A stretch of 62,165 nucleotides of DNA, the filler included, from Babesia bigemina (lineage: Eukaryota): assembly GCF_000981445.1 (NCBI RefSeq). It is 5 parts of 5 records of this genome, joined end to end, with 100 filler letters (N's around TTAATTAATTAA, not from the genome) between each part and the next. Parts side by side here need not be neighbours in the genome. Positions count along the whole stretch, not along the records: positions 39,845 to 51,958 come from NW_012237244.1; 4 more parts are not named here. One strand, written 5' to 3'. The notes beneath the pieces are model-generated. The model was given only the letters and a program-made list of their open reading frames with translations, had not been told where the DNA came from and did not search any database. The number at the start of each line of letters is the position of its first letter. Positions within the stretch are counted from its first letter, which is position 1. Positions 7,173-61,387 of the stretch are shown here, in pieces. Made by a program: the position numbers and the translations under genes.

Positions 7173-7225
7173 AAGTTATTGCTATGGTTTATAGAGGTCA
7201 TAGCGATATTATGGCGAGGTGATTA

Positions 7226-26515: not shown

Positions 26516-26782
26516 AATTCCCTGGCCGTCGTAGCCTTTGGAGTCAGAGTTGAAGCCGAGGAAAGTTTCGAGGCCAGTACAGAGGTTAGTAAGGATGTTA
26601 GTAGGGTTGTTATTTAAGGTATTTTTAAGGTTTTAAATTTCATCAAATTTCTTGTCAAGCTCCCTAAGCGGCACATGGTCAGGGCAGTGGCAAGGGGTGG
26701 AAGAGGGAAGTGAAGGGTGACAAGGCACAAGTTATTGTAATGGTTTAGAAAGGTCATAGCGGTATTATGGCGGGGTAATTCA

Positions 26783-33835: not shown

Positions 33836-36800
33836 ATGACCTCTTTAAACCATAACAATAACTTGTGCCTTGTCACCCTTCCCTTCCCTTCTTCCACCTC
33901 CTGCCACTGCCCTGACCATGTGCCGCCTAGGGAGCTTGACAAGAAATTTGGTAAAATTTTGAAACTTAAAAATACCCTAAATAACAACCCTACTAATATC
34001 CTTAACAACCTCTGCTCTGGCCTCGAGAAATTCTTAGGCTTCAACTCTGAGTCCAAAGGCTACGACGGCACTGGAATTGTCTACTCTGACTTGGACTGGC
34101 TGTGTGACGGGGTGATGGGATTTTTGAGTGGCGTTCTCAGTAACATCAGAGAGCATTTAGGGCAGCATAAAGATACTTTAGACATTGCAATTAACACTCT
34201 TAACAAAAATAAACACGCCGGTAAAAACGGTTTTAATGAAGCGATTGAAAAGGTGGTCGAGGGGGTGCGGGGGTATAATGATAAGGTGAGGGAGAGTAAT
34301 GAGAAAATTAATGGCGTGATAATTAATTTTACAAAACAGATAAAAAACATTCCGGAGGCTGTACGAAACTTTAATGATCATAATAGTGTTAACCAAATTA
34401 ATGATTCAGTCGATGAGTGCATCAAGGCATCGTCGAAGTATGTAGTAGGCATGTTAACAGTACACAAAGAGATCAAAGACCTTGAGGATAATTTAGAAAA
34501 TAAGGTTAACAATACTACTAATATTATTGAATACCAATATGGGAGGTTGAGTTTAATTTATGAAAAACAAAAAGAGGATCTCCAGCAGCTGACTGAGTTG
34601 CTTGGTGAACAGCATAGAAGTGTTCAAAAACAGATAAATAAGACTACCGAAGAGAAAGTAGGTGAATATGCTGGTGAAATATATGCTAGAGTTGATAAGC
34701 TTAAATCGAATATAGTCACTGTAAATGGTACTTTGAAAACGTATGTCAGTGAATTAGAAAACTGGATCGAAATAGTGCAAAAATCTGTAGAAATGGCTTT
34801 GAAAAAAGTTGAGACAATCTTGAATCTAGCTAGTGGAAATTCGTCACCGAACTATAGAGAAGATCTTGAGAACGCCGTTAAAGCGCTACAGCAGAAATGC
34901 TTGGCTTTGTTCAAAGCATATGACACGGCAAACAAGGCTTTGCCAGGATGGATGAAAAAACTCCAAGATACAGTGGGTGTGTTAGATGATAGGATTCAGA
35001 AGGATCTGGAAACATTGCTGAGTGGGATTAAAAAAAACCTCACCGATTACCTTCGGAAAATTAATGAAGATTTCGAAGCTTTGAGAGGTAACATTGTTCG
35101 AAAAGCTCAGTCCAGTTCACTGGATAAAAGCATAGCTTTCAATTGGGAAGTCATTAAGAGAACGATTTCGGGATACGCGGCAAATATTTATAAGGAAGAA
35201 AAAAAAATAGAAAATACTGATAAATCTGGAATGTTGCATGACATTCTTACAGCTGTATTAAACTATGGTAAAAAATTCACTACTATGAGTTTCGGAAAAG
35301 AGATCTTAGATGCATGGATGAAGGAGATATTGGTGAAGAATGATAGGTGGATAACCGGCAGATTAGATACATACGTCAGAGATAATGGAATTGGTACTTT
35401 TGAGACGACCCTAAATATTACAAGTGGCAGCGCTTCCACACTCCATGAGACAATTAAGAAGAAGATTACAGCGAAACTTCAAAGCGAAATAATTCAGAAG
35501 GCTACACAAAATTACAGTGAGGTACTCGACAGTGTTGCGGGCAATTTGGGCGCTATTCACAGAGTGTGCGAGCGATTTGCCAAAGATCTTAACGAAAAGA
35601 TTGCATCGAACGGTGTTAGTGATATTGCCGAGGAAATAGCCCGGGAGATTGAGAGGGGAAACGATGGCATTTTAAAGCAAAAAGATAAAGACAGCAACCA
35701 TCGACTCGATCTCACAACTGCTATCGAACGCATTCTTCACAGACTCACTGATAGAGCCAAAGAATTCGTATCTGATGTCGAGAAGCTGGTTAAGGAATGC
35801 AAATTGGAAAATGTAGATGCTTCTATGAAACTAGCGCGAAATATCAGAGATCAACTTGATCACAAATATAGCGCCGGGAAAGCAATTGATGTAGCATTGG
35901 AGGAAGTTACGTCAATAATTGAGTTGCTAGACACCAGCCTGTCCAAGGAGGAATTTGAGGGTGAGGTTGACAAAGCGATGTTATCCTACGTGAAAGGCAA
36001 ATTGAGAAGCAAAATGGAAGCCTACAATAAACACGTAACAAACAGCAGCGATGAGAATACGTTGGCAAAGGCCATCAAAGACGTTGAAGAGAAAGCCTTG
36101 GAACCGTTCTACCAACCTGTCAACACTGACAAAATAAACGACGCAACAATACATAAGACAGCCAAAGATATTGGTGCAAACTTCGCTCAGCTGTGCGACT
36201 CAATACTAAAGGCCGCATCTACAGAGGGCCCAGACAGCGCTAAAAGAAAATTAGAGGACATGAAAAATTATTGGATCGGAAAAGATACTAACGGTAAATT
36301 AAAAACTCTTAAAGAAAACTTAAACACCCTTCAAAAGAGCACGTTGTTCCCACTGATATCCAAGACGCAGGAGATCGCTCAGCGTGTCTCCACTGAGAGC
36401 TCTCGACTAATTCGGGAACTCTCTGAGCACGTAAACCAATTGATTGATAATGCTACAAATACTGTAACTCACGACATGCAACGGAGATATGTGATTTTCA
36501 TGAGATATCAACTTGAAGAGTTTTCCAATAATGTAACTAAGGTACTTACCGATTTCCCTGAGGCCATTAACAAGGACGCTGATAAGAACCACAAAGGATT
36601 TATGAAGGTTATCCAAACGAAATTAGCAACCAGTACGATTAACAGCACTCTAAATTTGGCCGACAAACCAGTCACTTTAACGACCAAAGTTACAATTTTT
36701 TTTTCAACTCTGCTTGATACCTTGAAACCCAACCGTGAGATCATGCCTAGCGACAAGCTTTCTGATATCAGAGAAAAACTTAACACTCTCCTCTCTGATC

Positions 36801-39070
36801 TCTCCCGTTTCAACCGCCCCTTCGTCCGCAACCTCACCGCACTTTCGTCCCTCCTCGATTCCATCCGCCCCGCATCCTACGCCGACGACAGCAACCCCCT
36901 GCTCGACTGTCTTAAAAAGGGCGTGCAGATGATGTGCGAGGAGCTCAAAAAGGCGTACGTGAGCGTGTATGATGGTGAGACGTTTGGTGCCAACCTTGTC
37001 GAAAAAGAGAAATTAACGCCGTATGGCACCCAGTTGTCCAAGGTGTTAATGTCCATCTTGGAGATATACAACGAAGATTTGAGGTACTTGAAAAATCGTA
37101 CCATCCACAAATGGTCAACAAGTAGAATATATGCTGGTAGCAGTTTAGGCACATTTTTGCAAAATAGCGGCTACAGCGTGTCCAACAATGAGACCGAGCA
37201 GAATGGTCACTTGGACAAGAATGTCGACGGCACAAAGATCATGAGTCTGCTTGTAGGCGAAAATTACGGTCACGTTTACCACAAGAATAAGAATTACAAA
37301 TTCCAGCTTGAGAACCTATACGACTGCCTTACGACTTATTACCGCATTCGTCACATCTCCACTGCAGGGTCGAAGAAGTCGCCGTGTAATATCTACGAGA
37401 TGCTCTGCTGGCTTACGAGTTTGCGATACAGTTCAGTGTACTCCGATTTTATTTCCGACGATTTCAGTGATTTGTTCGATAAGCGTGAGATGAAGAACGC
37501 AGAATCAAATGACCCCGATTTCATTCCAGTTGACGACCTCGGCGAACTCTCTTTGAAAGCCTGCCCTCAACGGATCACGTACGGTGAAATACACGATGCA
37601 ATTGTACACGTTACCGCCGTTTCATCTACAGTCTTAACTACCATCGTCGGCTATGGAGACGCCCACGCAACGTACGCTGTCGATTTTTATAGTAACGCCC
37701 TGAGACTGAGTTACCCATCGTCAAGCGTGGATTGCCTCAACATGTTGATCGAGGTCCTCGGTCGGCTGTTGCCTGTCTTCACGTTCCTACATGGCCAGTG
37801 CAGCATTACCGCTAAACACTACGGATGGTCCAACTGCTTGTACGGAAAAGGCGTCAAATGGTCAACGTGGCCGTGTGATGAGCACTCGAAGACAGAAGTT
37901 GAGTGCCATGCGAAATCACCTCTGCAATCCTTCCTCCGCGATTGCCTACCTGGTTACCTTCCTCATCAAGTAGAATCGGTCGGATGCAAATCTGACTGTA
38001 AAACGTGTCCCAAAAGCCTACCCGGTGCGCCATGTATAACACCACTTGGGTTCAGAAGCTTCACCGGTAGCAAGAAGACAGGCAAAGACCTATGTAACGT
38101 GCTAACCAAATTCATGGGTAACGGGGTTGCTTCACCCTTGTTCAGCCTCACTCCCAAACCGCCGAAAACGTTGGCAGAGCACTTCGGCTTCGCCCTGTCC
38201 TTAGTTAGGAACTGGCAGAGAGAGCGCAGTTATAGCCTTAAAACTAAGATGGTTTCCACAATAGAGGTTGTGTCAATTGGCCTCTGCAAAAACGCCAACA
38301 ATTTCACCAACGCTCTCAGCAATGCGTATGGAGACAACAAGGTAGGACATGAAAGCAACGGACATCGCAGCGGTACAGAGGCCGATCTGGCCAGCTTGTC
38401 GACAACAGAATCATGCGTCTATCCGAACAAAAATGTTCATTGTGCTCCCTACCTCCAATCGCTGTACAGCAATTCCTATATGTATGTGGCAGAGAAGCAC
38501 GCCAGCGCCTACTTGTCTTGGGCACTATACCTACCATGGAACCTACATTCCTTCCTCAAAAGTTTACTTGATGCGTTCAGTAATATTGTCTGCCAAGACT
38601 GGGGATGCAGCAGATGCGCCCACGGTAGTGCTTGTAGACGTGGTAATCACGGCGTAGATTACAATTGTCAGTGCAGAGGTATAATTGAGTGCCGTGGCGT
38701 ACAAAGCACATTATACAGCTTCGGATTCATGTTCGGCAATTCTGAAAAATTAGCAGTTAATGAAAGCAAGAGATATTGCCACAATTTCTACAAGCAGTTG
38801 CGCAACGTTCTCAATTCACAATATTTCACCAAATTATTTGAAGAATGTGACAACTTCATTTGGACAATCAGAGAACCGTTCACCTATCTAGTGCTCGCAT
38901 TCTGGTCACTATCCCTCTTCTACCTCATCTGCGTAATGGTTGGCAGACTGGATGTGCTCCACATCAAATCGCATTTACACTCTCCCTCATCACATCGCAT
39001 CGCCGCGCAGTCACTACTTGCTGCTGGACGTGTTAACAAGCTTAACAGGGTGTTTTATCTGCAACCGTAA
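33836..39070 (+). CDS. ves1: VESA1-like protein (gene 6; GYGD subtype); the only copy whose leader ATG is open into the body; chimeric tail
   Basis: 1744-aa ORF from MTSLNH...; internal MGFL ATG at 34115. Confidence 0.87.
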   Translation: MTSLNHNNNLCLVTLPFPSSTSCHCPDHVPPRELDKKFGKILKLKNTLNNNPTNILNNLCSGLEKFLGFNSESKGYDGTGIVYSDLDWLCDGVMGFLSGVLSNIREHLGQHKDTLDIAINTLNKNKHAGKNGFNEAIEKVVEGVRGYNDKVRESNEKINGVIINFTKQIKNIPEAVRNFNDHNSVNQINDSVDECIKASSKYVVGMLTVHKEIKDLEDNLENKVNNTTNIIEYQYGRLSLIYEKQKEDLQQLTELLGEQHRSVQKQINKTTEEKVGEYAGEIYARVDKLKSNIVTVNGTLKTYVSELENWIEIVQKSVEMALKKVETILNLASGNSSPNYREDLENAVKALQQKCLALFKAYDTANKALPGWMKKLQDTVGVLDDRIQKDLETLLSGIKKNLTDYLRKINEDFEALRGNIVRKAQSSSLDKSIAFNWEVIKRTISGYAANIYKEEKKIENTDKSGMLHDILTAVLNYGKKFTTMSFGKEILDAWMKEILVKNDRWITGRLDTYVRDNGIGTFETTLNITSGSASTLHETIKKKITAKLQSEIIQKATQNYSEVLDSVAGNLGAIHRVCERFAKDLNEKIASNGVSDIAEEIAREIERGNDGILKQKDKDSNHRLDLTTAIERILHRLTDRAKEFVSDVEKLVKECKLENVDASMKLARNIRDQLDHKYSAGKAIDVALEEVTSIIELLDTSLSKEEFEGEVDKAMLSYVKGKLRSKMEAYNKHVTNSSDENTLAKAIKDVEEKALEPFYQPVNTDKINDATIHKTAKDIGANFAQLCDSILKAASTEGPDSAKRKLEDMKNYWIGKDTNGKLKTLKENLNTLQKSTLFPLISKTQEIAQRVSTESSRLIRELSEHVNQLIDNATNTVTHDMQRRYVIFMRYQLEEFSNNVTKVLTDFPEAINKDADKNHKGFMKVIQTKLATSTINSTLNLADKPVTLTTKVTIFFSTLLDTLKPNREIMPSDKLSDIREKLNTLLSDLSRFNRPFVRNLTALSSLLDSIRPASYADDSNPLLDCLKKGVQMMCEELKKAYVSVYDGETFGANLVEKEKLTPYGTQLSKVLMSILEIYNEDLRYLKNRTIHKWSTSRIYAGSSLGTFLQNSGYSVSNNETEQNGHLDKNVDGTKIMSLLVGENYGHVYHKNKNYKFQLENLYDCLTTYYRIRHISTAGSKKSPCNIYEMLCWLTSLRYSSVYSDFISDDFSDLFDKREMKNAESNDPDFIPVDDLGELSLKACPQRITYGEIHDAIVHVTAVSSTVLTTIVGYGDAHATYAVDFYSNALRLSYPSSSVDCLNMLIEVLGRLLPVFTFLHGQCSITAKHYGWSNCLYGKGVKWSTWPCDEHSKTEVECHAKSPLQSFLRDCLPGYLPHQVESVGCKSDCKTCPKSLPGAPCITPLGFRSFTGSKKTGKDLCNVLTKFMGNGVASPLFSLTPKPPKTLAEHFGFALSLVRNWQRERSYSLKTKMVSTIEVVSIGLCKNANNFTNALSNAYGDNKVGHESNGHRSGTEADLASLSTTESCVYPNKNVHCAPYLQSLYSNSYMYVAEKHASAYLSWALYLPWNLHSFLKSLLDAFSNIVCQDWGCSRCAHGSACRRGNHGVDYNCQCRGIIECRGVQSTLYSFGFMFGNSEKLAVNESKRYCHNFYKQLRNVLNSQYFTKLFEECDNFIWTIREPFTYLVLAFWSLSLFYLICVMVGRLDVLHIKSHLHSPSSHRIAAQSLLAAGRVNKLNRVFYLQP

Positions 39071-39844: not shown

Positions 39845-40586
39845 GTGGTGACCAAAGCGGTGACCAGAGTGTTGACCAATGCCATGACCAAGGTGCTGAC
39901 CAAAGTGGTGACCAATGTGCAGACCAAGGTGCTGACCAAGATGCTGCCCAATGTGTTGCCCAAGGTGGTGACCAATGTGCAGACCAAGGTGCTGACCAAT
40001 GCCACAACCAACGTGCTGACCAACGTGCTGACCAATGTGCTGACCAATGTGCTGAACAAAGTAGTGACCAATGTGCTGACCAATGCCATGACCAATGTGC
40101 TGACCAAAGTGTTGACCAAGCACCTGACCAACGTGCTGACCAACGTGCTGACCAATGCCATGACCAAGGTGCTGACCAAAGTGGTGACCAATGTGCAGAC
40201 CAAGATGCTGCCCAAAGTGTTAACCAATGTGCTGACCAAAGTGCTGACCTATGTGCTGACCTATGTGCTGACCAGAGTAATGACCAACGTGTTGACCAAT
40301 GCCATGACCAAAGTGGTGACCAATGTGCTGACCAAAGTGCTGACCAAGGTGCTGACCAAAGTGGTGACCAATGTGCTGACCAACGTGGTGACCAATGTGG
40401 TGACCAAGATGCTGACCAATGCCATGACCAAAGTGCTGACCAAAGGGGTGACCAATGCCATGACCAACGTGGTGACCAACGTGCTGACCAAGGTGCTGAC
40501 CAATGTGCTGACCAATGCCATGACCAACGTGGTGACCATTGTGCTGATCAAAGTGCTGATCAAAGTGCTGACCAACGTGTTGACCA
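39845..40586. repeat. Repeat C array (long)
   Basis: 12-bp units. Confidence 0.95.
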
Positions 40587-40594: not shown

Positions 40595-41460
40595 GTCACG
40601 GCAGCGATGATATGGTTACGGCAGCGATGAGATGGACACGGCAGCGATGACATGGCGACGGCAGCGATGACATGGTTACGGCAGCGATGACATGGTCACG
40701 GCAGCGATGAGATGGACACGGCAGCGATGACATGGCGACGGCAGCGATGACATGGTTACGGCAGCGATGACATGGACACAGCAGCGATGACATGGTCACG
40801 GCAGCGATGACATGGTCACGGCAGCGATGACATGGTTACGGCAGCGATGATATGGACACAGCAGCGATGACATGGTCACGGCAGCGATGACATGGTCACG
40901 GCAGCGATGACATGGTCACGGCAGCGATGACATGGTAACGGCAGCGATGGCATGGTCACGGCAGCGATGACAGTTGATGGTTACAGCAGCGATCACTGGT
41001 CACGGCAGCGATGACATGGACACAGCAGCGATGACATGGTCACGGCAGCGATGACATGGTCAAGGCAGCGATGACATGGTCACGGCAGCGATGATATGGT
41101 CACGGCAGCGATGACATGGTCACGGCAGCGATGATATGGTCACGGCAGCGATGACATGGTTACGGCAGCGGTGACATGGTTACGGCAGCGGTCACATGGT
41201 CACGGCAGCGGTGACATGGTCACGGCAGCGATGACATGGTCACAGTAGCGATGACATGGTCACAGTAGCGATGACATGGTCACGGCAGCGATGACATGGT
41301 CACGGCAGCGATGACACGGTTACGGCAGCGATGACATGGACACGGCAGCGATGACATGGACACGGCAGCGATGACATGGACACGGCAGCGATGACATGGT
41401 CTCGGCAGCGATGACATGTTTACGGCAGCGATGACATGGTTACAGCAGCGATGAAATGGT
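40595..41460. repeat. Repeat B array, largest in the window (about 40 copies of GTCACGGCAGCGATGACATG)
   Basis: Near-strict 20-nt periodicity. Confidence 0.97.
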
Positions 41461-41479: not shown

Positions 41480-42218
41480 ATCCACTCTACATCGCCCCTT
41501 AACCACTCCACATCGCCCCTTTACCCACTCTACATCGCTCCCTAACCCACTCTACATCGCTCCCTAACCCACTCTACATCGCTCCTTTACCCACTCTACA
41601 TCGCCCCTTTACCCACTCTACATCGCCCCTTAACCCACTCTACATCGCCCCTTAATCCACTCTACGTCGCCCTTTAACCCACTCTACATCGCCCCTTTAA
41701 CCACTCTACATCGCCCCTTTACCCACTCTACATCGCTCCTTTACCCACTCTACATCGCCCCTTACCCACTCTACATCGCCCCTTACCCACTCTACATCGC
41801 CCCTTTACCCACTCTACATCGCCCCTTTACCCACTCTACATCGCTCCCTAACCCACTCTACATCGCTCCTTTATCCACTCTACATCGCTCCCTAACCCAA
41901 TCTACATCGCTCCCTAACCCACTCTACATCGCTCCTTTAACCACTCTACATCGCCCCTTTACCCACTCCACATCGCCCCTTAATCCACTCTTCATCGCTC
42001 CCTAACCCACTCCACATCGCCCCTTTAACCACTCTACATCGCCCCTTAACCCACTCTACATCGCTTCCTAACCCACTCTACATCGCCCCTTAACCACTCC
42101 ACATCGCCCCTTTACCCACTCTACATCGCTCCCTAACCCACTCTACATCGCTCCTTAACCCACTCTACATCGCTCCCTAATCCACTCTACATCGCTCCCT
42201 AACCCACTCTACATCGCT
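41480..42218. repeat. Repeat A array upstream of gene 7
   Basis: Tandem units. Confidence 0.95.
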
Positions 42219-42486
42219 CGAATTACCTCGCCTTAATACCGCTATGACCTCTATAAACCACAATAATAACTTGTGCCTTGTCATCCTTCACATCCCCTCT
42301 TCCACCTCTTGCCACTGCCCTGACCATGTGCCGCCTAGGGAGCTTGACAAGAAATTTGACAAAATTTAAAACCTTAAAAATACCTCAAATAATAACCCTA
42401 CTAACATCCTTAATAACCTTTGTACTGGCCTCGAAACTTTCCTCGGCTTCAACTCCACTTCCAAAGGCTACACTGGCGAGGGGATT

Positions 42487-45400
42487 GTGTACTCTGACCT
42501 GGATAGGCTGTGTGACGGGGTGATGGGATTTTTGTATGGTGTGCTTATGGATGTCAGCGAGAAACAGCCTTACAGTGTGGGTAAAAGAGAGATAAATGAA
42601 GCTGTTGAAATGCTTAAAAAGAATTTATCCACCGGGCGTGAGGGTTTTAGTGTCATTGCGCAGGTGGCGGGGAAGGTGCGGGAGTATAATGAGAGAGTTA
42701 AGCAAAGTAACGATGATATGAAAACCATAATAAACAATATGGACAGAGACATGAAAACGCTTCAAAATGAGGTAGGTAACATTCTACGAAATAATCCTGA
42801 TTCAGAAAATTTTGATGAAGTCAAGCAGGCTGAAACCTTGGTCACTAAGCTGGCCGACGAGTATGCAAAAAAAGGTATGAATTTCGATAGTAATTTTGTC
42901 ATAAGAGAGATAAACGCATGGAGGACAGGTGCTAATGTTGAGCCAATACAGCAATTCAAAGACATAAATTCTGACCTGAGATTAAAAATCACCCATGCAA
43001 GAAACAATATCACGCATGAGGCTGAGAGGCTTACGACACTGTCAAAGAAGCAGAAAGAGAACTTGGCTGCGATGACTAGTATGATTAGTAATAAGCTCAA
43101 AACGCTTAAAAGCTGTGTCAATGAGCGAATTTTGCAAGATGTCAATGAGCTTGTTAGCAAGGTGAATGAGAAAGTTGCGGCAATTTTGCAATTGCTACAG
43201 AGGATCAGCGCGACGCTTTGGAATTATGTTAATGAATTGGGGAGGTGGATTAAGGATGCGGAAGGAATTGTGACTCAAGCAATTAAGGACACGAAAGAAA
43301 TCGAGCAAAAAGGACCGGGTTGGCAAAACCAGGATAAGATCAATGAGAAAGCAAAGGAGTTCAAGGACAAGGCTACGGATCTCTACTGGAAATTTGAGGG
43401 TGCGAAGCGGTCAGTTGAGGAGGGCGTAAAAAGCGCGAAAATTGAGAATGTTGAGCAGTTGACTACGTGGAAGAAGGCAGGCGACGCGGCCGTTACGAAG
43501 GCGAAGAGACAAGGTGCGGCAATTGGTGAGATGGTTCAGACTAAAGGTGCAGGTAAGGAGGATATTTATAAGTTAGCTAACGATATGAAAACAAAGGCTG
43601 AGAATCTCAGAGCGGCGGCGAAGCATATTAAGAAAGAGATTGGAGGATGGGTTAAAACAGCGCTTACGCAGGTGAAGGATATGGATGAGGCGCTGAAGAA
43701 GGATTTGTATAAGGTGAAGGAGGCTGTTAGTAGGCAGGTAGAAGGGATTAAGACGGCGATTGGGAAGTTGTATAAAGTGGTTGAGACTGGAGACACGGAA
43801 GGGGCAACGCACAACTCAATGGTCGAGATGGTCGACCTTATAAAAAATAAGATAAAGACCATTGAAGGGGTAGGCGGAAGGTTCGTAACTAAACCAACCG
43901 GGCTGTGGGCAATCAGTCAGCAGGTTCCGACCTACGTTAAGACGTTTGAGAACTTTGATGCGACGGTCGCTGATTGGGTGAGGGAGATTGTGAGAAGGAT
44001 GGTAGCAAATAATGGTCCCCTGCATGAGCATATTGACATGTATGCTTCCGAAATAGAAACTCTGCAAAATAACCGTGAACAACTGCTTCCTAAGGTGAAG
44101 GAACAAATCATTACCAAGGTCATAGCCAAGGTAAAAGAAATTGCGTTAGCTCACAAAGCGGATCTTGCCACCAATGGAAATGTGGAAACCGATTTAAAAT
44201 TGATTAAAAGATTCCTTGATCACTTTAATGGGCAAAGTCTACAGAATGGTGTTGACCATATAGTCAGTGCTATAGAGAAGGCAGGTGAATTACAAGTGGA
44301 TCCCTCCAAACAAAATGTTATACACAACTCAGATCTGAAGAATGCCGTAAATATAGTTTTGCATGTTTTTTCAATGGCTGCTGAAAAAATGGGTGAGCAA
44401 ATTCAGAAGCTTGCTACTGACTGCCATCTCGGCAAAATCAACGAGGCATTGACCACGGCTAGCGATTTTGAAGAGAAATTGAAACAAGCTACAGGAAACC
44501 AATCCGTTGGAACATCCAGCAGTAGGATTAACTTTGCCCTCGCCGTCGACAACGCGATCAGGGAGGTGACGGAAGAGCTTGGGAGAAAATTGATTACCGC
44601 CGCTGGTGATACAGTCACGCTGGAAACAACGACTGCCTTCTCCAAATACGATGGCTTTGTCGACCAAGACAAAGTGTCCTCCCTTTCCAACTCTGACTTC
44701 GAAGCCATCAAAAGCGCAGGCTCCCTCCCCGCGGCGATCGGTGCGATAAAGACGCAGGTGACGAGTAAGCTTAACGAAGGTAAACTAGCATCAGAAATAG
44801 ATGCCTCTGACACTTTCACCGATCCCTTCGGTAAAATCACCGAAAAACTCAAAACCATCGCCGGGCTGGTTGACAGCGACAAAAGTAATCTGCGTCCAGC
44901 ACCGGGAGATGGCCAGAAGAACGGCGTGAACAACTACCTGAATGATATTACAAGTATGCTTGGCAAAACTCCCGTCGACCTCAAGTCAGATATAAAAGGG
45001 AGCCACCCAAATGTCAAAGGCCTCGAGACGATAAAGAGTGAAATCGACTCCGCGCTCGACGGGATTAAAAATAAAGCTGACGCAGAATTTGATGCCGCAA
45101 AAGCAACTACAGACAGCGGAAACATATTCACAACTTTGTCCACCGCGATCACTACGAATCTCAAAGACCTTTTGGCAGCTTTCGAGGAGGCAGGCAAACA
45201 AGTGAACAAACATTTGCAAAAATTAAAAACCAACATCGGCAAGAAGGAACATGGCGCTGATGCTGCAGTTGGTACGCTGCAGAAAATCCACGACAATCTT
45301 GTTACCTTGTTGAACGGTGACATTAGCCAAGTCATCAATGACGCCACTGCCTTCAAAAAACAAGCCAATCAATTGCGTGATAAAACAATCGGAGCACTCA

Positions 45401-48222
45401 ACGGACACGTCGAAGATGAAGTTAAAAAAGCCGAAACCGCCCTCATCACCCAGGCCAACAAAAACTACGTCACGTCCGTCAAAGAGATGCTGACTGCCTT
45501 CGCCGACAAGGTGCAGAAGGAACTGAAGCCCCTCCCCGGCGAGATCGACACCGACAGGCAGCACGGCTTTAAGGGTTTCATGCGGACGTTGCAGGGGACG
45601 TTCAACGGTGATGAGACTTTGACTGACAATATTGACAAACTCAAGGGTCTCGTAAGTGAACTGTCAGGGACTGTGAATCACAAGGAGGCGTTCGCAAAAT
45701 TGTCGCAAAAATTAAAGGAGTTCTGCTCACCACTTCACGACTACCTCAAAGAAGAGATCAGAAGGGTTCACGCAGCGAATCAAGAGAAAACAAATCCCAA
45801 GCCATCTGGCGACGAACAGCTCTACACCTCCAAACTCGAAGCTGCACATATCGCGCTCAACAATCTACTCGATCACATTAGTAATCACCGCTACAACCAC
45901 GAAGTGCCCGCCTTGCTTGACATCCTCTCCACTAAAGTCGATGGTCTGCACCCCAAGACATTCAATGAACCGAGCACTCCGCTGCTTGACGGCGTTGGCA
46001 AGGGTGTTCACGGGTTCGTTAGTGAACTGGACAAGGCGTACATCTCGACCTACGACAGTGAGACCTTTGGCGGTGAGATGTTCGAGAAAGATAAATTAAC
46101 AGCCTATGGCACAAAATTCGCCAAAATATGCTTCACCGTGGTATGCACCCTCAACTCCACGTTGACCGACTTGACGCACAATTGCAAGAGTCTACGTGGA
46201 CAGCAAATTAATAAGTCCACCGACGTGGGAAGATCATTCGTCGGCCACGGCTACGCGGTCTCCGATGCGGCGCTGCAGAACGGCGAGTTGCAAAACAAAC
46301 CGACAGTGGCGGGAGAGAACGTTGCTAAGCGGTTGCTGCTACCAATTCGCGGCGCCGACGAGAACCAACACCTTAAATGGTGTGAATCGAACGAGCAGAG
46401 AAAAGCCGACCACTTCCACGTCTTCGACGCCATTGACTGCATATTCAGCCACTTCGAGCAGTACAACGAACTCTGCCACCTGCTCACGGCCTCAGCGAAG
46501 CAGCACCCCTGCTCCGTGTACGACATATTGATCTGGCTCAGCGGTTTCCCGTACACTGCAGTATATGCTACGATGAGTGATATAACCATCAGTGATCTAT
46601 TTGACAACCCGCATAAGAAGGCGGCCGGCGACGACGAACTTGAGCTCACATCGACTGACATGGCAGCCCAATCCATAACGGCGCACCCCCGAAACATATC
46701 GTATACTTACGTACGTAAAGCCGTGGACCATATCTGTGCGACGTCCTATGACGTATTGACTGCCGTTGTCGGCACTGGCGACTCCAGGACCGTTTACGCC
46801 TCCGACTTCTGCAACAACTCATTCAACTTCCATTACCCATCGGATCCGTCGGACTGCCTGGACATGCTGCTGGACCTACTGCGCCGATTGTTGCCCGTGT
46901 TCCGGTTCTTGGAACTGCAGTGTAACATCAAGCCTGAACACCACGGTTGGTCACAGTGCCGCTACGGGAGGGACATCCCTACAACCAAATCGCAGTGTAA
47001 CGAGCACTCAAGCGAAGAAGCAAGCGGACAAGCAAAGTGCCAAGTAAACTGCCAGCCAACGTCCCCCCTTATGTTATACCTCAGTGACAGCCTCCCTGGC
47101 CATCTGCCGCACCAACTGCAGTCAGTGGGATGCAGAGCGAAATGCAGCACCTGCCCTAAGAACCAACCAGGGCAACTGTGCTTGATTCCTCTCGGATTCA
47201 AGGGCTTCTCGGGAAGCTCCAAAACGGGCAGACAGTTGTGCGAAGCAATCAAGATCTTCATCGGTACAGGCTTAATATCCTCACTGATGTGCCTCCTGCC
47301 GAAGCCACCATCCACGCTGCCCGAGCACTTCCAGTTTGTATTCACGTTGGTTGGTGCGTTTAATGCTAACAGAGATGTCAACTCAAATGCCGTCAATGCT
47401 GCGTTTGTGAAGGCAATAAGGAAGCAGTCCATCGACTTGTATGCGGAGCCATCAGAACTCACAGGCGCGCTTCAGAAGGCTTATAACAGCAACGAGCAGC
47501 ACGACGGTACGGAGCATCCCAAAGCTTCAGATGCCGATTTGTCAACATTGTCTAAAGCAAAGACATGTAATTATCCGAACAAGGATGTTCACTGCGCTCC
47601 GTACCTGTCCACGTTGTACAGTGATGCATACCACTACGCTGCCGAGAAGCACGCCGGTCTCTACCTGTCATGGGCAGTGTACTTACCGTGGTCGTTTTGG
47701 CAGTGTCTTGAATCTTTGTTCAAAGCGTTTACCAACATATCCTGTCAGGATTGGGGATGTAGTCGCTGCACGCACGGCACGGCTTGTAAACGGGGTAAGC
47801 ATGGCGCTGCCTATAATTGCCAGTGCAAAGGCCTCGTTGAATGCCGCGGTGTCATAAGCACGTTATATAGTTTCGGATTCACGTTTGGCAATCCAGCGAC
47901 GCTTTCAGCTGCAGAGGGAAAAAGGTATTGCCACAATTTCTACAGACAACTCCACAATGTATTAAATTCCAACTACTTCAGAACGCTGTTCGAAAAATGC
48001 GACGAATTCATTTTCACCATCAGACAGCCGTTCATATGGATGACCGTGGCGCTCTGGTCACTATCTCTCTTCTACCTCCTTTGCGTAATGGTTGGCAGAC
48101 TGGATGTGCTCCACATACGCTCACACCTGAGGATACCGTCATCACACAAGATAACGGCGCAATCATTGTTGGCTGCAGCGCAAGTCGGAAGGCTTGCCAA
48201 GATATCGTATCTACAACCGTAA
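42487..48222 (+). CDS. ves1: VESA1-like protein (gene 7; GTGD subtype); first ATG at 42523; in-frame TAA in leader at 42367-42369
   Basis: 1911-aa ORF with conserved motifs, TM and ...AKISYLQP tail. Confidence 0.85.
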   Translation: MYSDLDRLCDGVMGFLYGVLMDVSEKQPYSVGKREINEAVEMLKKNLSTGREGFSVIAQVAGKVREYNERVKQSNDDMKTIINNMDRDMKTLQNEVGNILRNNPDSENFDEVKQAETLVTKLADEYAKKGMNFDSNFVIREINAWRTGANVEPIQQFKDINSDLRLKITHARNNITHEAERLTTLSKKQKENLAAMTSMISNKLKTLKSCVNERILQDVNELVSKVNEKVAAILQLLQRISATLWNYVNELGRWIKDAEGIVTQAIKDTKEIEQKGPGWQNQDKINEKAKEFKDKATDLYWKFEGAKRSVEEGVKSAKIENVEQLTTWKKAGDAAVTKAKRQGAAIGEMVQTKGAGKEDIYKLANDMKTKAENLRAAAKHIKKEIGGWVKTALTQVKDMDEALKKDLYKVKEAVSRQVEGIKTAIGKLYKVVETGDTEGATHNSMVEMVDLIKNKIKTIEGVGGRFVTKPTGLWAISQQVPTYVKTFENFDATVADWVREIVRRMVANNGPLHEHIDMYASEIETLQNNREQLLPKVKEQIITKVIAKVKEIALAHKADLATNGNVETDLKLIKRFLDHFNGQSLQNGVDHIVSAIEKAGELQVDPSKQNVIHNSDLKNAVNIVLHVFSMAAEKMGEQIQKLATDCHLGKINEALTTASDFEEKLKQATGNQSVGTSSSRINFALAVDNAIREVTEELGRKLITAAGDTVTLETTTAFSKYDGFVDQDKVSSLSNSDFEAIKSAGSLPAAIGAIKTQVTSKLNEGKLASEIDASDTFTDPFGKITEKLKTIAGLVDSDKSNLRPAPGDGQKNGVNNYLNDITSMLGKTPVDLKSDIKGSHPNVKGLETIKSEIDSALDGIKNKADAEFDAAKATTDSGNIFTTLSTAITTNLKDLLAAFEEAGKQVNKHLQKLKTNIGKKEHGADAAVGTLQKIHDNLVTLLNGDISQVINDATAFKKQANQLRDKTIGALNGHVEDEVKKAETALITQANKNYVTSVKEMLTAFADKVQKELKPLPGEIDTDRQHGFKGFMRTLQGTFNGDETLTDNIDKLKGLVSELSGTVNHKEAFAKLSQKLKEFCSPLHDYLKEEIRRVHAANQEKTNPKPSGDEQLYTSKLEAAHIALNNLLDHISNHRYNHEVPALLDILSTKVDGLHPKTFNEPSTPLLDGVGKGVHGFVSELDKAYISTYDSETFGGEMFEKDKLTAYGTKFAKICFTVVCTLNSTLTDLTHNCKSLRGQQINKSTDVGRSFVGHGYAVSDAALQNGELQNKPTVAGENVAKRLLLPIRGADENQHLKWCESNEQRKADHFHVFDAIDCIFSHFEQYNELCHLLTASAKQHPCSVYDILIWLSGFPYTAVYATMSDITISDLFDNPHKKAAGDDELELTSTDMAAQSITAHPRNISYTYVRKAVDHICATSYDVLTAVVGTGDSRTVYASDFCNNSFNFHYPSDPSDCLDMLLDLLRRLLPVFRFLELQCNIKPEHHGWSQCRYGRDIPTTKSQCNEHSSEEASGQAKCQVNCQPTSPLMLYLSDSLPGHLPHQLQSVGCRAKCSTCPKNQPGQLCLIPLGFKGFSGSSKTGRQLCEAIKIFIGTGLISSLMCLLPKPPSTLPEHFQFVFTLVGAFNANRDVNSNAVNAAFVKAIRKQSIDLYAEPSELTGALQKAYNSNEQHDGTEHPKASDADLSTLSKAKTCNYPNKDVHCAPYLSTLYSDAYHYAAEKHAGLYLSWAVYLPWSFWQCLESLFKAFTNISCQDWGCSRCTHGTACKRGKHGAAYNCQCKGLVECRGVISTLYSFGFTFGNPATLSAAEGKRYCHNFYRQLHNVLNSNYFRTLFEKCDEFIFTIRQPFIWMTVALWSLSLFYLLCVMVGRLDVLHIRSHLRIPSSHKITAQSLLAAAQVGRLAKISYLQP

Positions 48223-56057: not shown

Positions 56058-56296
56058 CGAATTACCTCGCCATAATACCGCTATGACCTCTCTAAACCAT
56101 CCTAATAACTTGTGCCTTGTCACCCTTCCCTTCCCCCTCTACCACCTGTTGCCACTGCCATGTCCTGTCATGTTCACCTTAACTCCAAATCTCTCGAATT
56201 ATATCGCCATATCAACGCTATGACCTCCATTAATTATGACCATAACTTGTTGTTACTTCCCACTCCCGTCGTTATGACGATGCTACTAAGAAAGCC

Positions 56297-59200
56297 TTGC
56301 AGGACATTGAGTCCAAGTTGAAGCAGGTTAAAAATCTCCAAAAAAATCTTGAAGGATTGACTGACCAAAACAGTTGTCAAAAGCTGTTAGAGAATCTTTG
56401 TGACGGTCTTCAGACTTTCCTCGGCTTCAACTCTGAGACCAAAGGCTACGATGGCAGTGGGATTGTCTACTCTGACCTTGACAGGCTGTGTGACGGGGTG
56501 ATGGGATTTTTGAGTGGTGTGCTTGGTGCGGTGAAAAAAGATCCAAGCGTTTCAACGTATTATAAGAACATGGATAAGACACTCCAAAAAATTAAAGACA
56601 GTATGCACAATCCTGGCGGATTGTCTGCGGCCGTTGACGCTGTGAGCACGGCGCTGGGGGAGTGGGATGGAGAGCTCACTAGTAGAACAAAGTACACTAT
56701 AGATAAATTCAAAACTCTAACAACTGTTAATATTAGTAATATGCATGATGCACTTAATGATTTAAATAGACTTAGTGATGATGCTGACTTGCAGTATGTC
56801 GCCGCCCATCTGGGCAACTGTATCTCCAAGGCCCAGGAACTGTCCACGGCATTTGACCATGCAGAGGGCGGTTATAAAACGCTCGACAAAAACCTGAAAG
56901 ATAAGTTGAAAAATGCTGTATTTGAAATTAAGTTGCAGGTTAAATCGTTCGTGGAGGCGGCGAAGAATGAGGAGTTGAAGGAACTATTAAGAGAGACGGA
57001 AATACAGCTTAATGTTCTAAAACGGCAAGTGAGAGATAGAGTGGAAAAACGTATTGGACAATTGACGGATACATTGCAAAGAACTTTTGAAACGCGTATT
57101 AAAACGCCTATTGAAAACCTAAATGAGAAATTGGGAGCCATCCATAATAATTTGGATGCATGGCTTCGAAAGACGAGTGCTGTAATTGACAGTGCAATTA
57201 AAAAGGCAACACAAATTCATGAGCGGTTAGTGAAACAGACGCGAATAATAAAAGAAGGAGCGGACGGCTTTGAAAGGGATGCTGAAAAAAGAGTATCGGG
57301 TATGATAGATTCCGTAAGGAGCCTTCTGGGAGATGCTCGGAAAAGTGGGCATAACCTTGAAAAGGCGTCGCAAAATGCTAGTGAGCAGATGTTACATTTG
57401 AAGGACATGGCAACAGACGTATTTGCGAGAGCAAAGTGCATCGCAGAAAATATAAAACTTCTCGATAATAAAATTAAAAATAAAGCCGACGACGAAATGA
57501 ACAAAGTGTTTTTTCATTCCATGGCCATTGATGTTAACGATATACAAGGCGAAATTGAGGCGTTAGTAAACGGAATTAATGAAGCGATTGGGAACCTGGC
57601 TGAAACTATTGTTAGCGATAATATTAAGTCTATCAAAGATATGCTAACAAAACTTAATAGAGAAGACATTACTGGTCTAAAAACAACCATTGAGAAAGTT
57701 AATGAGGAATCCAGTGCATTGGATAAGATGCAATATCCCACGTTGAATTACTTAAAATATATAGTAGGCCCAAGCACCAATGGTACAACCATATTTGATA
57801 AGTTGAAGAATGCTCTCACAATACCGGCATCATCAGCCAAACGGATGGCTGTTAGAACCACAGTTGCTGCGCAATCCCCTGATCAAGAGAAAAGTCCTGC
57901 CGAGAATGTGGACGCCGCGATCGAGAAAGTGAGGACGAAAGTTAAGCAGCTGCAGACTGAGTTCGAAAAAAAGTATAGCACTCCTAAATCACATATTCAA
58001 TCACTTCGAAAGACTTTGGCAGACATTAAACAATTTTCTGGTTATCTTGTTGCGAAAGAAACGGGCATCCCAAACGATGTTAGCCTAGTTGAACGAAACA
58101 TAAGAAATTTCGAAAATCAATTTAAGAAGCTGATTGATGCCGTCGAGACAAGCAAGGTAACCCGCCATATCAATGAATTAGGTAATGCTCTTGGTAGCTC
58201 CATGAATCAGATTGTCAAATACATTAGCGACACTGGGAAGCATTTCAGCGCACTTACGGAGGAACTGAGTAAGCTACAAAACGAGTTGTATGATGAAAAA
58301 GACAAAGATGTTATTGAGAGGTTAAGTGATGTCTTGAGTAAAGGATTTTTTGGTTTTAAGGAATGGAATGGTATCGTGAGTTTCACGACATTGCTAGCAG
58401 AAATTAAAAGTATAATCGATGGGCCAAATACAGCAAATACACTAGCCAGAATCATTGAAGACGCCAATACATTTTACAGTTCCGTCATCCACTACGAAGC
58501 AGAGACAGTTATCGCCCATCTTCAAGCTTTCGTAGCTGGACGTTCCGCTGCCGCTCTTACTGCCATTCAGTCTAGAGCCAAAGAAGATTATTATGAAGCA
58601 ACCCGCAAAATGTTTACAGCCATGCAACGAGATGTTCATATGCAAATTGATGAAATTAATAACCTAATTGCGCTTGACTACAATAACGGAGTTAAAGGCC
58701 TATTGAAGAGAGTAATGGATAAGGATAATGCGTTTTCCGGTTCGAATAATAAGCTGAAGAAACTGGATGTAAAGAAGACTGATTCCATTCAAGCAAACGA
58801 ACGGCTCAGAAGTCTATCAGCTAACCTGAAAGCATATCTCGTTAATATTTTAAGTTACGTCTTTTACCCGGTAGGCACTGGACTGACCGATGACCCAGCT
58901 AAAAAAGTGAAAAATATTCAGACCGATGTAGATGAATTACTTGAACATTTAAGTGTCTCAAATGACTCTAAAAAGTATAATTATGATAACAAATTCGTCA
59001 CTTTTCTCACCTCCCTCTCCTCCTCCCTCACCGCTCTCCACCCCTCCGCCTTCGCGAACCCCCGGCACCCGGAGCTGCTCGATGCGGTCAGAGCGGGGCT
59101 GCAGGGGTTTGTCAAGGAGATGGAGCGGGTGTATGTGAACGGGTATGATGGAGGGGAGGGGATTAAAATGTGGTACAAAAATGACAAGGAAAGTGGTTAT

Positions 59201-61387
59201 TTGACCACTAAAGGAAGAAACGGCGCTAAGGTATTTTTGAGTTTCCTACCAATGTTGTTGGAGGACCTTACTAAGTTAAATGATAAGTGTCGCGGTAATT
59301 GGAAAAATCAATTTATATGTGAAACGAACGGTGAAAACGAGAATCTTCTCGGTAAATTTCTCAAGCGCTGTGGCTACAAGGTCGCCAAATCGGACACCTC
59401 CAAGGACGGCGAGTCGGAATGTAAGAAAAGTAGAATTGGTATCAATATTTATGATAGACTTGCAACGCGCATATTTGACGCCTCAATTGTGAATCATCTC
59501 AAAGCATGTGACTACAATAAGGATAACAAGAAGGAAGGGCCGGAGAAAGTGAATTTCGACTACTTCGATTTACTTAAATGCCTTTACCATCACTTGGACC
59601 AATTCAATGAAGTAGGTCACCTATCAACTCTGGGGTCGAGGAGACAACCATGCTCCGTCTACGAGATGCTCTTATGGCTGTCTGGTCTCCCGCATCATCC
59701 GGTGCATACAGCTATGCGTGATGAAACTATCCTTGAAATAATCGAAAACATAAATAAAGATGAGAAGAAGACAGACATAGAGGCAGACGGCTTTACGTTC
59801 TCCATGGGTGAGACCATAAGCATATGCCTAGAAGCTTACCCAAGAAAGGTACCGTATGATTCCTTACAAAAAGCGGTGACACACATCTGCTCCCAAGCGT
59901 ATGACGTACTGTGCGCCATTGCTGGAACTGGTGACGCCGACACATTCTACGCAAGTGACTACTGCAACAACTCAATGAAATTCAACTACCCGGCTTCAGG
60001 GGAAGACTGCCTCGACATGTTCCTCGATATTCTTCGCCGAATGTTACCGACGTTGCAATTCTTGAAACAACAGTGTGAGCTAAGCACCAATATGAACGGC
60101 TGGCAACAATGCAAGTACGGTAAAGATATAAAGACAGGCAAATGGCCATGTAACGAACACTCAAGTGATGAATCAAACGATGAAACAAATTGCCAACCAA
60201 ACTCACCACTAATGGGCTACCTTAACGATTGTTTACCCGGTCACCTGCCGCATCAACTCAGCAAAATTGGCTGTAAATACGAATGTAATACCTGCCCCTC
60301 TACCTTAAAGAAGGGTATGCCCTGCTTGACTCCATTGGGTTTCAGAGGTTTCTCTGGAAACACCAAAAGAGGCAAAGAGCTGGGTGAAGTGCTCACTAAA
60401 TTCTTAGGTAACGAGTATATTCAAGGCCTATTCTGCCTACAGCCTCAGCCACCCAAAACGTTGCCCGAACATTTCGGATTTGCATTAACGCTGGTGAAGG
60501 GATGGATTAATATTACTAATTTCCGGAACAAAGGCTTACCTAATATCAGTTTTCAATCAGCGTTTGAAGCATCCGTTCGCGACTTGTCTATTGATCTATA
60601 TTCAGATCCCTATGAGTTAACAAAATCGTTAACCAAATCATATGGTTCGCAGTCCGTTGTTCATGATTCGTGTGAGCATCCGCACCTCGTGAATTTCACA
60701 AGCTCAGATATATGCACTAACAGGCGTTCGGATGTAAGTTGCGCATCCTACCTTAATATCGCATCGAACGAAACCTACAGTTACCTAGTAAACAAACACG
60801 CCGGACTCTACGTATCATGGGCTGTTTACTTGCCATGGTCGTTTTGGGAGTTACTCAACAATTTGTATAAAGATTTTTGTAACATATTCTGTGCCGATTG
60901 GGGCTGCCGTGGATGCCTCCGCGGCGACAAATGCAAACGTGGAGAGCATGGTACTGTTGATGACAAAACTGGTGATGCAAAATGTAAATGCAGTTCCATA
61001 GTTCGATGTAAAGGCGTACCACCTCTACTATATAGATATGGATTTGCCTTCGGAAATGTGTCAGAATTGGACGAAACGAAATTCGAAAAAACATGCTCCA
61101 ATTTCTGCCACCAATTGAAGAAACTTCTCGACTCGAAATACTTCATTGACCTCTTCGAAAACTGCGACAAATTCATTTTTACAATCCGCGCCCCCTTCAT
61201 CTGGCTCAACGTCGCCCTCTGGCTCCTCTCCTTGCTGTACCTCCTCCACATCATGGTCATCCGCCTAGACCTGCTCCACATCAAATCGCATCTACATAGT
61301 CCCTCGAGTCATCGCATCGCTGCTCAATCACTGCTCGCCGCTGCACGCGTTGGCAAGCTCAGCAAAGTGTTTTATCTGCAACCATAA
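56297..61387 (+). CDS. ves1: VESA1-like protein (gene 9; GTGD subtype, type II leader); first ATG at 56501
   Basis: 1696-aa ORF with conserved motifs, TM and YLQP. Confidence 0.85.
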   Translation: MQDIESKLKQVKNLQKNLEGLTDQNSCQKLLENLCDGLQTFLGFNSETKGYDGSGIVYSDLDRLCDGVMGFLSGVLGAVKKDPSVSTYYKNMDKTLQKIKDSMHNPGGLSAAVDAVSTALGEWDGELTSRTKYTIDKFKTLTTVNISNMHDALNDLNRLSDDADLQYVAAHLGNCISKAQELSTAFDHAEGGYKTLDKNLKDKLKNAVFEIKLQVKSFVEAAKNEELKELLRETEIQLNVLKRQVRDRVEKRIGQLTDTLQRTFETRIKTPIENLNEKLGAIHNNLDAWLRKTSAVIDSAIKKATQIHERLVKQTRIIKEGADGFERDAEKRVSGMIDSVRSLLGDARKSGHNLEKASQNASEQMLHLKDMATDVFARAKCIAENIKLLDNKIKNKADDEMNKVFFHSMAIDVNDIQGEIEALVNGINEAIGNLAETIVSDNIKSIKDMLTKLNREDITGLKTTIEKVNEESSALDKMQYPTLNYLKYIVGPSTNGTTIFDKLKNALTIPASSAKRMAVRTTVAAQSPDQEKSPAENVDAAIEKVRTKVKQLQTEFEKKYSTPKSHIQSLRKTLADIKQFSGYLVAKETGIPNDVSLVERNIRNFENQFKKLIDAVETSKVTRHINELGNALGSSMNQIVKYISDTGKHFSALTEELSKLQNELYDEKDKDVIERLSDVLSKGFFGFKEWNGIVSFTTLLAEIKSIIDGPNTANTLARIIEDANTFYSSVIHYEAETVIAHLQAFVAGRSAAALTAIQSRAKEDYYEATRKMFTAMQRDVHMQIDEINNLIALDYNNGVKGLLKRVMDKDNAFSGSNNKLKKLDVKKTDSIQANERLRSLSANLKAYLVNILSYVFYPVGTGLTDDPAKKVKNIQTDVDELLEHLSVSNDSKKYNYDNKFVTFLTSLSSSLTALHPSAFANPRHPELLDAVRAGLQGFVKEMERVYVNGYDGGEGIKMWYKNDKESGYLTTKGRNGAKVFLSFLPMLLEDLTKLNDKCRGNWKNQFICETNGENENLLGKFLKRCGYKVAKSDTSKDGESECKKSRIGINIYDRLATRIFDASIVNHLKACDYNKDNKKEGPEKVNFDYFDLLKCLYHHLDQFNEVGHLSTLGSRRQPCSVYEMLLWLSGLPHHPVHTAMRDETILEIIENINKDEKKTDIEADGFTFSMGETISICLEAYPRKVPYDSLQKAVTHICSQAYDVLCAIAGTGDADTFYASDYCNNSMKFNYPASGEDCLDMFLDILRRMLPTLQFLKQQCELSTNMNGWQQCKYGKDIKTGKWPCNEHSSDESNDETNCQPNSPLMGYLNDCLPGHLPHQLSKIGCKYECNTCPSTLKKGMPCLTPLGFRGFSGNTKRGKELGEVLTKFLGNEYIQGLFCLQPQPPKTLPEHFGFALTLVKGWINITNFRNKGLPNISFQSAFEASVRDLSIDLYSDPYELTKSLTKSYGSQSVVHDSCEHPHLVNFTSSDICTNRRSDVSCASYLNIASNETYSYLVNKHAGLYVSWAVYLPWSFWELLNNLYKDFCNIFCADWGCRGCLRGDKCKRGEHGTVDDKTGDAKCKCSSIVRCKGVPPLLYRYGFAFGNVSELDETKFEKTCSNFCHQLKKLLDSKYFIDLFENCDKFIFTIRAPFIWLNVALWLLSLLYLLHIMVIRLDLLHIKSHLHSPSSHRIAAQSLLAAARVGKLSKVFYLQP

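What the first reader, a model, noticed from the sequence alone, without database searches (positions are those of the whole stretch)
42219..42525. Six of seven ves 5' ends carry in-frame stops while the 5-kb bodies stay intact
Seen: the leader encodes ves-like sequence (SCHCPDHVPPRELDKKF..., or DATKKALQDIESKL) but has an in-frame TAA. Positions are 42367 (gene 7), 26633 (gene 4), 13973 (gene 2), and shortly upstream of the ORFs of genes 1, 3 and 9. In these six the first in-frame ATG is that of 'M(G/A)FL', downstream of the conserved GIVYSDLDRLCD motif. Only gene 6 has the leader ATG (33836) open into the body, through an indel in the pyrimidine tract. Inference: either 5'-incomplete silent donors that are completed only on recombination into an expression site, or genes translated from MGFL, or an unseen spliced upstream exon.
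Basis: partly seen in the sequence, partly recalled or inferred. Interest (0 to 1): 0.72.

Follow-up and report, generated by a model that had tools for sequence, protein, structure and literature searches.

The report
Headless surface-antigen gene archive in Babesia
These genes of a cattle blood parasite have lost the start of their surface-antigen coding sequence but keep a long open body, so they likely serve as silent spare copies that swap pieces with complete copies to vary the antigen.

Summary
The stops are real: TAA at 42367, 26633 and 13973, and the gene-7 TAA also stands in contigs of an unrelated run. One detail is wrong: gene 6 has the standard spacing (279 nt, as genes 2 and 7); genes 1 and 4 are the ones one base short. 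The window is a Babesia bigemina-type ves1b array. All seven copies with a sequenced 5' end, gene 6 included, lack the family's N-terminal head (DCPENL...DWLIQV), which all 12 checkable proteomically detected VESA1b carry. Each begins after stacked 12/24-, 20- and 22-bp repeats with a leader that drifts like non-coding DNA, followed by a 38-codon block with a protein-level constraint signature upstream of MGFL and a body with no stop where about 12 would be expected. Best reading (0.5): headless silent copies kept open by recombination with headed copies of the same small-contig pool. Long shared tracts link them to that pool, not to the expressed chromosomal genes, so donation to an active site is not shown. 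A weak splice pair that would skip all lesions, in-situ expression of a shortened protein, and passive pseudogenes remain open. No RNA was available. New variant of a known kind.

The parts
39845..40586 (+). 12-bp tandem array upstream of gene 7
   Evidence: TRF
40595..41460 (+). 20-bp tandem array upstream of gene 7
   Evidence: TRF
41482..42217 (+). 22-bp C-rich tandem array ending 27 nt before the leader ATG; same array 25-29 nt before all seven leaders
42218..42257 (+). conserved 40-nt leader element with the leader ATG (42244); 9 copies in the window, doubled in genes 3 and 9
42244..42408 (+). gene 7 leader codons 1-55, drifting without protein-level constraint
42367..42369 (+). in-frame TAA, gene 7 (leader codon 42)
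   Evidence: also in contigs of run X2
42409..42522 (+). conserved block, codons 56-93 (NLC..FLGF..GIVYSDLDRLCDGV), upstream of the first in-frame ATG after the stop
   Evidence: pN/pS 0.19-0.32; 17 of 19 invariant family positions
42523..48222 (+). gene 7 open ves1b body from MGFL to the membrane-anchor C-terminus (1900 codons)
33836..39070 (+). gene 6: leader open into the body, but also headless; W in place of the otherwise invariant R of the DRL motif
21164..26757 (-). gene 4: leader ATG 26757, pyrimidine tract one base short (near 26709), TAA 26633-26635, MGFL 26479
8387..14092 (-). gene 2: leader ATG 14092, TAA 13973-13975 (codon 40), MAFL 13813
1704..7201 (-). gene 1: leader ATG 7201, pyrimidine tract one base short (near 7153), MGFL 6923
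14775..17779 (-). gene 3 (type B): doubled leader element, ATGs 17779 (in frame, stopped) and 17643 (out of frame), 146 open codons before MGFL 17182; 3' end lost in a gap
56083..61387 (+). gene 9 (type B): doubled leader element, ATGs 56083 and 56220 both out of frame, 85 open codons before MGFL 56501

Best explanation
These are ves1b surface-antigen genes that lack the family's N-terminal head and carry stops or one-base shifts in their leader, and they likely act as silent copies whose open bodies are exchanged by recombination with complete (headed) copies. Shown: missing head, lesions confined to the leader, no protein-level constraint on leader codons 1-55, constraint signature from codon 56 on, open bodies, patchwork sharing of long exact tracts with other array genes. 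Inferred: that they are not translated in place; that the repeats and the conserved FLGF/GIVYSDL block give the upstream homology and the conserved 3' end the downstream homology; that the recipients are the few headed copies on small contigs (MRHVPKKLTDCPENL type); that selection on the recipients is what keeps the bodies open.
For: Head absent: strong tblastn hits of 12 headed proteins to window genes start at residue 66 or later; a head profile finds 24 of 118 homologs and nothing in the window below E=0.01. 12 of 18 VESA1b rows in the proteomics table of PMC4066756 could be matched to fetched proteins and all 12 have the head. Leader codons 1-42 pN/pS 0.56-0.68, 43-55 0.46-1.0, variable columns 9/13/11 by codon position; codons 56-93 pN/pS 0.21-0.25, equal to the C-terminus (0.28); synonymous-only codons 5 of 24 against 11 of 20, p=0.03. 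In 20 annotated open leaders 14 of 54 positions are invariant against 27 of 38 in the block, p=2e-5, with radical changes in the leader (mean BLOSUM -1.0). Neutral drift at the leader's rate predicts 11-12 stops per body, 70 in six; none seen. Headed and headless copies are mixed in a C-terminal tree: 8 changes, shuffled mean 9.2, 134 of 500 as low. Exact tracts of 40 residues or more: 5 of 9 window genes with annotated array genes (up to 314), 5 of 8 small-contig headed or part-headed genes with headless ones. Segmental gene conversion from silent donors is established in B. bovis (PMC6630957), where truncated copies were proposed as functional pseudogenes (PMC2034396).
Against: No RNA or protein data for these loci. 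Chromosomal headed genes, the only ones shown expressed, share a tract of 40 or more residues with headless genes in 1 of 28 cases, against 11 of 28 among themselves; window genes 0 of 9. Direction of transfer is not shown, and tracts shared across strains can be common descent. 8 of the 12 matched expressed proteins were found with the head as query, and no small-contig locus tag occurs in the proteomics file, so those genes were probably not searched. 15 of 86 annotated B. bigemina homologs have the leader open, so many copies could be translated. A splice pair that skips all lesions exists. DNA-level tests rest on five to six copies that are not independent; the codon-position contrast alone is p=0.08.
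Confidence: 0.5

Rival explanations
1. The leader's first 12 codons are a small first exon, and an intron of about 180-200 nt removes the stops and shifts, giving shortened VESA1b proteins expressed in place.
For: One GT inside the leader's invariant 19-nt stretch has a frame-keeping, stop-free AG partner in all six broken copies. In type A the only such AG lies just before GIVYSDL and is present in 4 of 4 broken copies, absent in open gene 6; an AG-capable residue (Q/E/K) stands there in 25 of 89 annotated homologs and 4 of 20 open ones (nominal p about 0.006). The neutral drift of the middle of the leader fits an intron.
Against: Found after trying all GT-AG pairs; the four copies share linked alleles and differ in strain from the background set. 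The donor matches the usual 5' splice consensus (recalled) at little more than GT; the type-A acceptor has 13-15 pyrimidines in 27 nt, another AG 14 nt upstream, and is GAG in gene 7. It would cut out codons 56-74, which keep pN/pS 0.23-0.32 in the broken copies. In type B any Q/E/K codon offers an acceptor, so rescue there is uninformative. The same residue occurs in 9 of 22 headed genes as plain coding sequence.
Confidence: 0.15
2. The copies are expressed in place as an N-terminally shortened VESA1b class: from the leader ATG where it is open, from MGFL where it is not.
For: Bodies are strictly open with an intact membrane anchor; 20 annotated homologs and gene 6 have an open leader, and 12 of 86 are annotated from MGFL; the leader ATG is kept in all 9 element copies.
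Against: 17 of the family's 19 invariant positions lie before that Met (57 hand-picked motif-bearing proteins); in a model of a headed B. ovata homolog it sits inside helix 243-263 (pLDDT 88-96); the block before it is constrained and, in genes 3 and 9, 146 and 85 codons before it are open without ATG. The leader peptide is unconstrained, and even gene 6 was annotated from MGFL (P0005), so such annotation says nothing. Gene 6 has W at an invariant R.
Confidence: 0.15
3. They are functionless by-products: pseudogenes that receive sequence from working genes by duplication and conversion, so bodies look fresh and only the 5' end outside the conversion tracts decays.
For: Needs no expression and explains the same constraint signature as inherited; mixed tree; little tract sharing with expressed chromosomal genes; 10 of 86 annotated N-termini contain off-frame words, so 5' decay is widespread.
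Against: None of nine sequenced bodies has a lesion although headless-type copies outnumber headed ones among small-contig homologs (2 of 68 with the full DCPENL head); passive refreshing from so few sources would be expected to leave some broken bodies (inference).
Confidence: 0.17
4. The lesions are sequencing or assembly errors in a repetitive multigene array.
For: Draft assembly with gaps; the one-base differences lie in pyrimidine runs and were not checked in reads.
Against: The gene-7 TAA is matched in run X2; genes 4 and 7 share it; lesions sit only in leaders; off-frame N-termini occur in another annotated assembly; errors would not remove the head.
Confidence: 0.03

Closest known systems
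BbigVes1b of Babesia bigemina (PMC4066756)
   Same: Homologous N-terminal block and C-terminal membrane anchor; mixed with headed copies in the tree; mosaic bodies.
   Different: Lacks the DCPENL/DWLIQV head; broken, unconstrained leader after repeat stacks; relatives lie mostly on small contigs (7 of 73 on contigs over 0.5 Mb against 11 of 13 headed). The sections read do not describe such copies.
Babesia bovis ves1 silent donors and segmental gene conversion into the LAT (PMC6630957, PMC2034396)
   Same: Non-expressed, often truncated copies proposed as sequence donors.
   Different: Here truncation is uniform at the 5' end with shared upstream repeats, tandem rather than shown head-to-head; donation itself is not shown.
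Pneumocystis msg-I genes with UCS and CRJE (PMC10622565)
   Same: Archive copies lack the 5' part held by the expressed locus and begin with a conserved element.
   Different: The UCS is single-copy; B. bigemina has at least 28 chromosomal headed copies; no fixed junction shown here, and types A and B join the body at different points.
Trypanosoma brucei archival VSGs with 70-bp repeats (PMC4858185)
   Same: Tandem repeats directly upstream of each antigen gene, a candidate upstream homology for conversion.
   Different: Unrelated repeat sequence and protein; a role of the Babesia repeats is untested; whether headed copies carry the repeats could not be seen.
BbigVes2 (PMC4066756)
   Same: Shortened derivatives of ves1b.
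   Different: ves2 keeps the 5' end, lacks the anchor and is monophyletic; these keep the 3' end, lack the head and are not a clade.

Membership tests
BbigVes1b | Homology to genes labelled BbigVes1b | tested here: met
   P0069 (BBBOND_0303890, labelled BbigVes1b) hits all seven 5' regions at E 2e-22 to 6e-34
BbigVes1b | Conserved C-terminal membrane anchor and tail | tested here: met
   8 of 9 window genes; gene 3 is cut by a gap
BbigVes1b (full-length, expressed form) | N-terminal DCPENL...DWLIQV head | tested here: not met
   no hit in six frames of the window below E=0.01; 24 of 118 homologs hit
Pfam VESA1_N (PF12785) | Profile match | tested here: inconclusive
   0 of 9 window frames, but the known VESA1b P0069 also fails; 1 of 11 queries hit
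Silent donors for segmental gene conversion | Not transcribed or translated in place | not testable with these tools
   no RNA run could be laid
Silent donors for segmental gene conversion | Tracts found in expressed or expressible genes | tested here: inconclusive
   5 of 8 small-contig headed or part-headed genes, 1 of 28 chromosomal headed genes share 40 or more exact residues; direction unknown
Silent donors for segmental gene conversion | Mosaic exchange among copies | tested here: met
   patchwork tracts with different partners; 36 of 74 annotated array genes share 40 or more residues with another
Pneumocystis-type UCS/CRJE system | Single-copy 5' part | tested here: not met
   28 chromosomal headed copies
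Pneumocystis-type UCS/CRJE system | Conserved element at the start of every archive copy | tested here: met
   40-nt element before all seven genes; its use as a junction is untested
VSG 70-bp-repeat archive | Upstream repeats promote conversion | not testable with these tools
   repeats are present before all seven; function unknown
BbigVes2 | 5'-derived, no membrane anchor, monophyletic | tested here: not met
   anchor present, head absent, not a clade

The most novel reading that the evidence does not exclude
B. bigemina has a second, overlooked tier of antigenic variation: a large archive of headless ves1b cassettes, each flagged by ordered repeat arrays, that is expressed only by recombination into a few headed sites of the same pool, separate from the chromosome-internal ves1b genes studied so far.
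Probability: 0.3. Interest if true: 0.75.

Novelty: new variant of a known kind. Interest (0 to 1): 0.5.

Why it matters
If right, a large share of this cattle parasite's ves1b genes, annotated as ordinary hypothetical proteins, are not expressible as they stand. That changes the count of functional antigen genes, names candidate expression sites and junction sequences, and makes the switching mechanism of B. bigemina testable with long-read cDNA. It would also be a structural parallel in an apicomplexan to the trypanosome and Pneumocystis archives.

Tried and rejected
No whole genome is held for this window. No RNA holder listed; this is no evidence on expression. Run X1 left the middle of the gene-7 leader without cover; a part without cover proves nothing. 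The motif scan of metagenome contigs found 0 loci. TAA reassignment rejected: 8 of 8 complete 3' ends stop at TAA. A stop-restart coupling through an upstream +1 frame that ends on the MGFL ATG rejected: that frame is open from the HVP-region ATG only in gene 7, of five type-A copies. A separate upstream exon rejected for genes 1, 6, 9: the 868-1300 nt upstream spans hold no gap and are 3' flank plus repeats. Headless copies as their own subfamily rejected by the tree. Short tracts (20-33 residues) shared with headed genes were not counted as evidence: 8 of 13, but the B. ovata control gave 3 of 13. Fold search of the model gave no match at E<=0.001. The bacterial promoter scan does not apply to a eukaryote. 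The representative-protein search met a full queue twice and was not run; the atlas gave only scores under 0.9 for the 50431 frame. Three look-ups of earlier findings returned nothing. The search for Babesia splice-site data gave nothing usable, so the splice consensus is from memory.

Full report
What the window is. It holds nine long open frames. The first 220 residues of gene 6 find 111 homologs among 743 candidates: 86 named Babesia bigemina, 24 B. ovata, and the window's own protein. P0069, labelled BbigVes1b in a published proteomics table, matches all seven 5' regions, and 8 of 9 frames end in the conserved membrane-anchor tail. So this is a ves1b array of B. bigemina or a very close form. 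It is a draft scaffold with gaps; genes 5 and 8 lack their 5' ends and gene 3 its 3' end.

The observation. The account of gene 6 is wrong: leader ATG to MGFL is 279 nt in genes 2, 6 and 7 and 278 nt in genes 1 and 4, and 20 annotated proteins have the same open 93-residue leader (15 of the 86, 5 of the 7 new ones). Genes 3 and 9 form a second type with a doubled leader element and ATGs that are out of frame or stopped. Lesions are confined to leaders: 5 in 275 codons against 0 in 8,873 body codons (p=2e-8; 3e-5 as three events), and drift at the leader's rate would put 11-12 stops in each body. The gene-7 TAA is matched in contigs of run X2, which holds only 0.05 of the gene's words: depth 50.5 at the site, one contig of depth 3.8 differing. 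These are short contigs, none bridging the site by 31 letters on both sides except the differing one, so this shows presence, not frequency. The other lesions were not checked in reads.

The larger fact: the head is missing. Full-length homologs begin with a DCPENL...DWLIQV head and reach GIVYSDL at residue 138-301. Their strong matches to window genes start at residue 66 or later, and a profile of the head finds 24 of 118 homologs but nothing in the window below E=0.01. Gene 6 is headless too. For genes 1, 6 and 9 the upstream DNA is gap-free and consists of the neighbour's 3' flank and repeats, leaving no place for a head exon. Of 18 VESA1b rows in the proteomics table, 12 could be matched and all 12 have the head; 8 of them were found with the head as query, and no small-contig locus tag occurs in that file, so the headless class was probably not searched. 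Among the 86 homologs, 11 of 13 headed ones lie on contigs over 0.5 Mb against 7 of 73 others (p=8e-8), 12 are annotated from MGFL, and 10 have off-frame words at the annotated start, so 5' decay is family-wide.

Where constraint begins. Leader codons 1-55 show pN/pS 0.46-1.0 and no third-position bias; codons 56-93 show 0.21-0.25, like the C-terminus at 0.28. The DNA contrast is modest on five related copies (p=0.03 and 0.08) and strong on 20 annotated leaders (14 of 54 against 27 of 38 invariant, p=2e-5). The constrained block lies before MGFL, holds 17 of 19 invariant positions in 57 hand-picked motif-bearing homologs, and in a model of a headed B. ovata protein that Met sits inside a confidently predicted helix (the head itself is low-confidence). 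MGFL is therefore an unlikely natural start. The signature may be inherited rather than current.

Exchange. In a tree of the last 330 residues (47 rows: 11 headed, 13 open type A, 8 window, 15 B. ovata; proteins without the conserved end, the unclassified class and gene 3 left out; genes 5 and 8 unlabelled) headed and headless copies are mixed (8 changes, shuffled mean 9.2). Exact tracts of 40 or more residues join 5 of 9 window genes to annotated array genes, in patchwork, and 5 of 8 small-contig headed or part-headed genes to headless ones, but only 1 of 28 chromosomal headed genes and 0 of 9 window genes to chromosomal headed ones. This supports recombination inside the array pool and tells against simple donation to the chromosomal genes known to be expressed. 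Only two small-contig genes, P0034 and P0103, have an intact annotated head; they are candidate recipients (inference).

The splice rival. A test of all GT-AG pairs found one GT in the leader's invariant stretch with a frame-keeping partner in all six broken copies. In type A the partner AG is present in 4 of 4 broken copies, absent in gene 6, and possible in 25 of 89 homologs. This was found after the fact on linked alleles, the sites are weak by the recalled consensus, and it would remove constrained codons 56-74. It stays open at 0.15.

Mechanism. Most likely (0.5) these are headless silent copies. Shown: missing head, drifting broken leader, constrained block, open mosaic bodies, upstream repeats. 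Inferred: silence, use of the repeats and conserved blocks as recombination anchors, headed copies of the same pool as recipients. Rivals: passive pseudogenes 0.17, splicing 0.15, in-place shortened protein 0.15, error 0.03.

Comparison and literature seen. PMC4066756: abstract, sections 8, 13, 22 (first of two parts), 23, 25, 26, passages, supplementary legends and searched rows of the proteomics file. Passages only: PMC10463595, PMC5660447, PMC6630957, PMC2034396, PMC10622565. Abstract and outline only: PMC4858185. Truncated donors and segmental conversion are known in B. bovis; 5'-incomplete archives and upstream repeats are known in Pneumocystis and trypanosomes. Five searches and the parts read showed no description of headless ves1b copies in B. 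bigemina; figures, unread sections and subscription papers were not seen. It works like those archives by anatomy; membership as a donor system is not shown. Verdict: real feature, new variant of a known kind, interest 0.5.

Noticed in passing
window 41482-42217 and the six other 22-bp arrays: The 22-bp repeat is G-rich on the template strand (mean G4Hunter-type score about 1.0-1.1; many four-G-run matches), a possible G-quadruplex or R-loop site upstream of every copy. A partial annotated B. bigemina protein (P0117) reads through the same repeat into the leader, so the layout is not peculiar to this window.
   Followed up: partly
window 18700-20800 and 49100-51240: By eye, two opposed copies of a roughly 2-kb module with 75/76-bp repeats and short hydrophobic frames, including a cysteine-rich frame with a membrane-like end at 50431-50862 that has no confident atlas hit.
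   Followed up: partly
window 14675-14774, 27252-27351, 39745-39844, 51959-52058: Assembly gaps with a six-frame-stop spacer; gene order across them, including the head-to-head look of genes 4 and 5, is not reliable.
   Followed up: no
window about 34097-34099 (gene 6): The only open copy has W where 57 homologs have an invariant R in the DRL motif.
   Followed up: partly
window 42325-42345 and the type-B leaders: The leader reads HVP, as does the start of small-contig headed genes (MRHVPKK), and two annotated genes (P0095, P0026) place the leader peptide before head sequence. The leader may be the old 5' flank and decayed start of headed genes; tblastn of those starts gave no hit at HVP, and P0032 aligns the same stretch to internal coding sequence.
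   Followed up: partly
window 40595-41460: Translations of the 20-bp repeat weakly resemble the VRHG part of the head (best E about 0.06 by tblastn, 0.01 by profile); not significant.
   Followed up: partly
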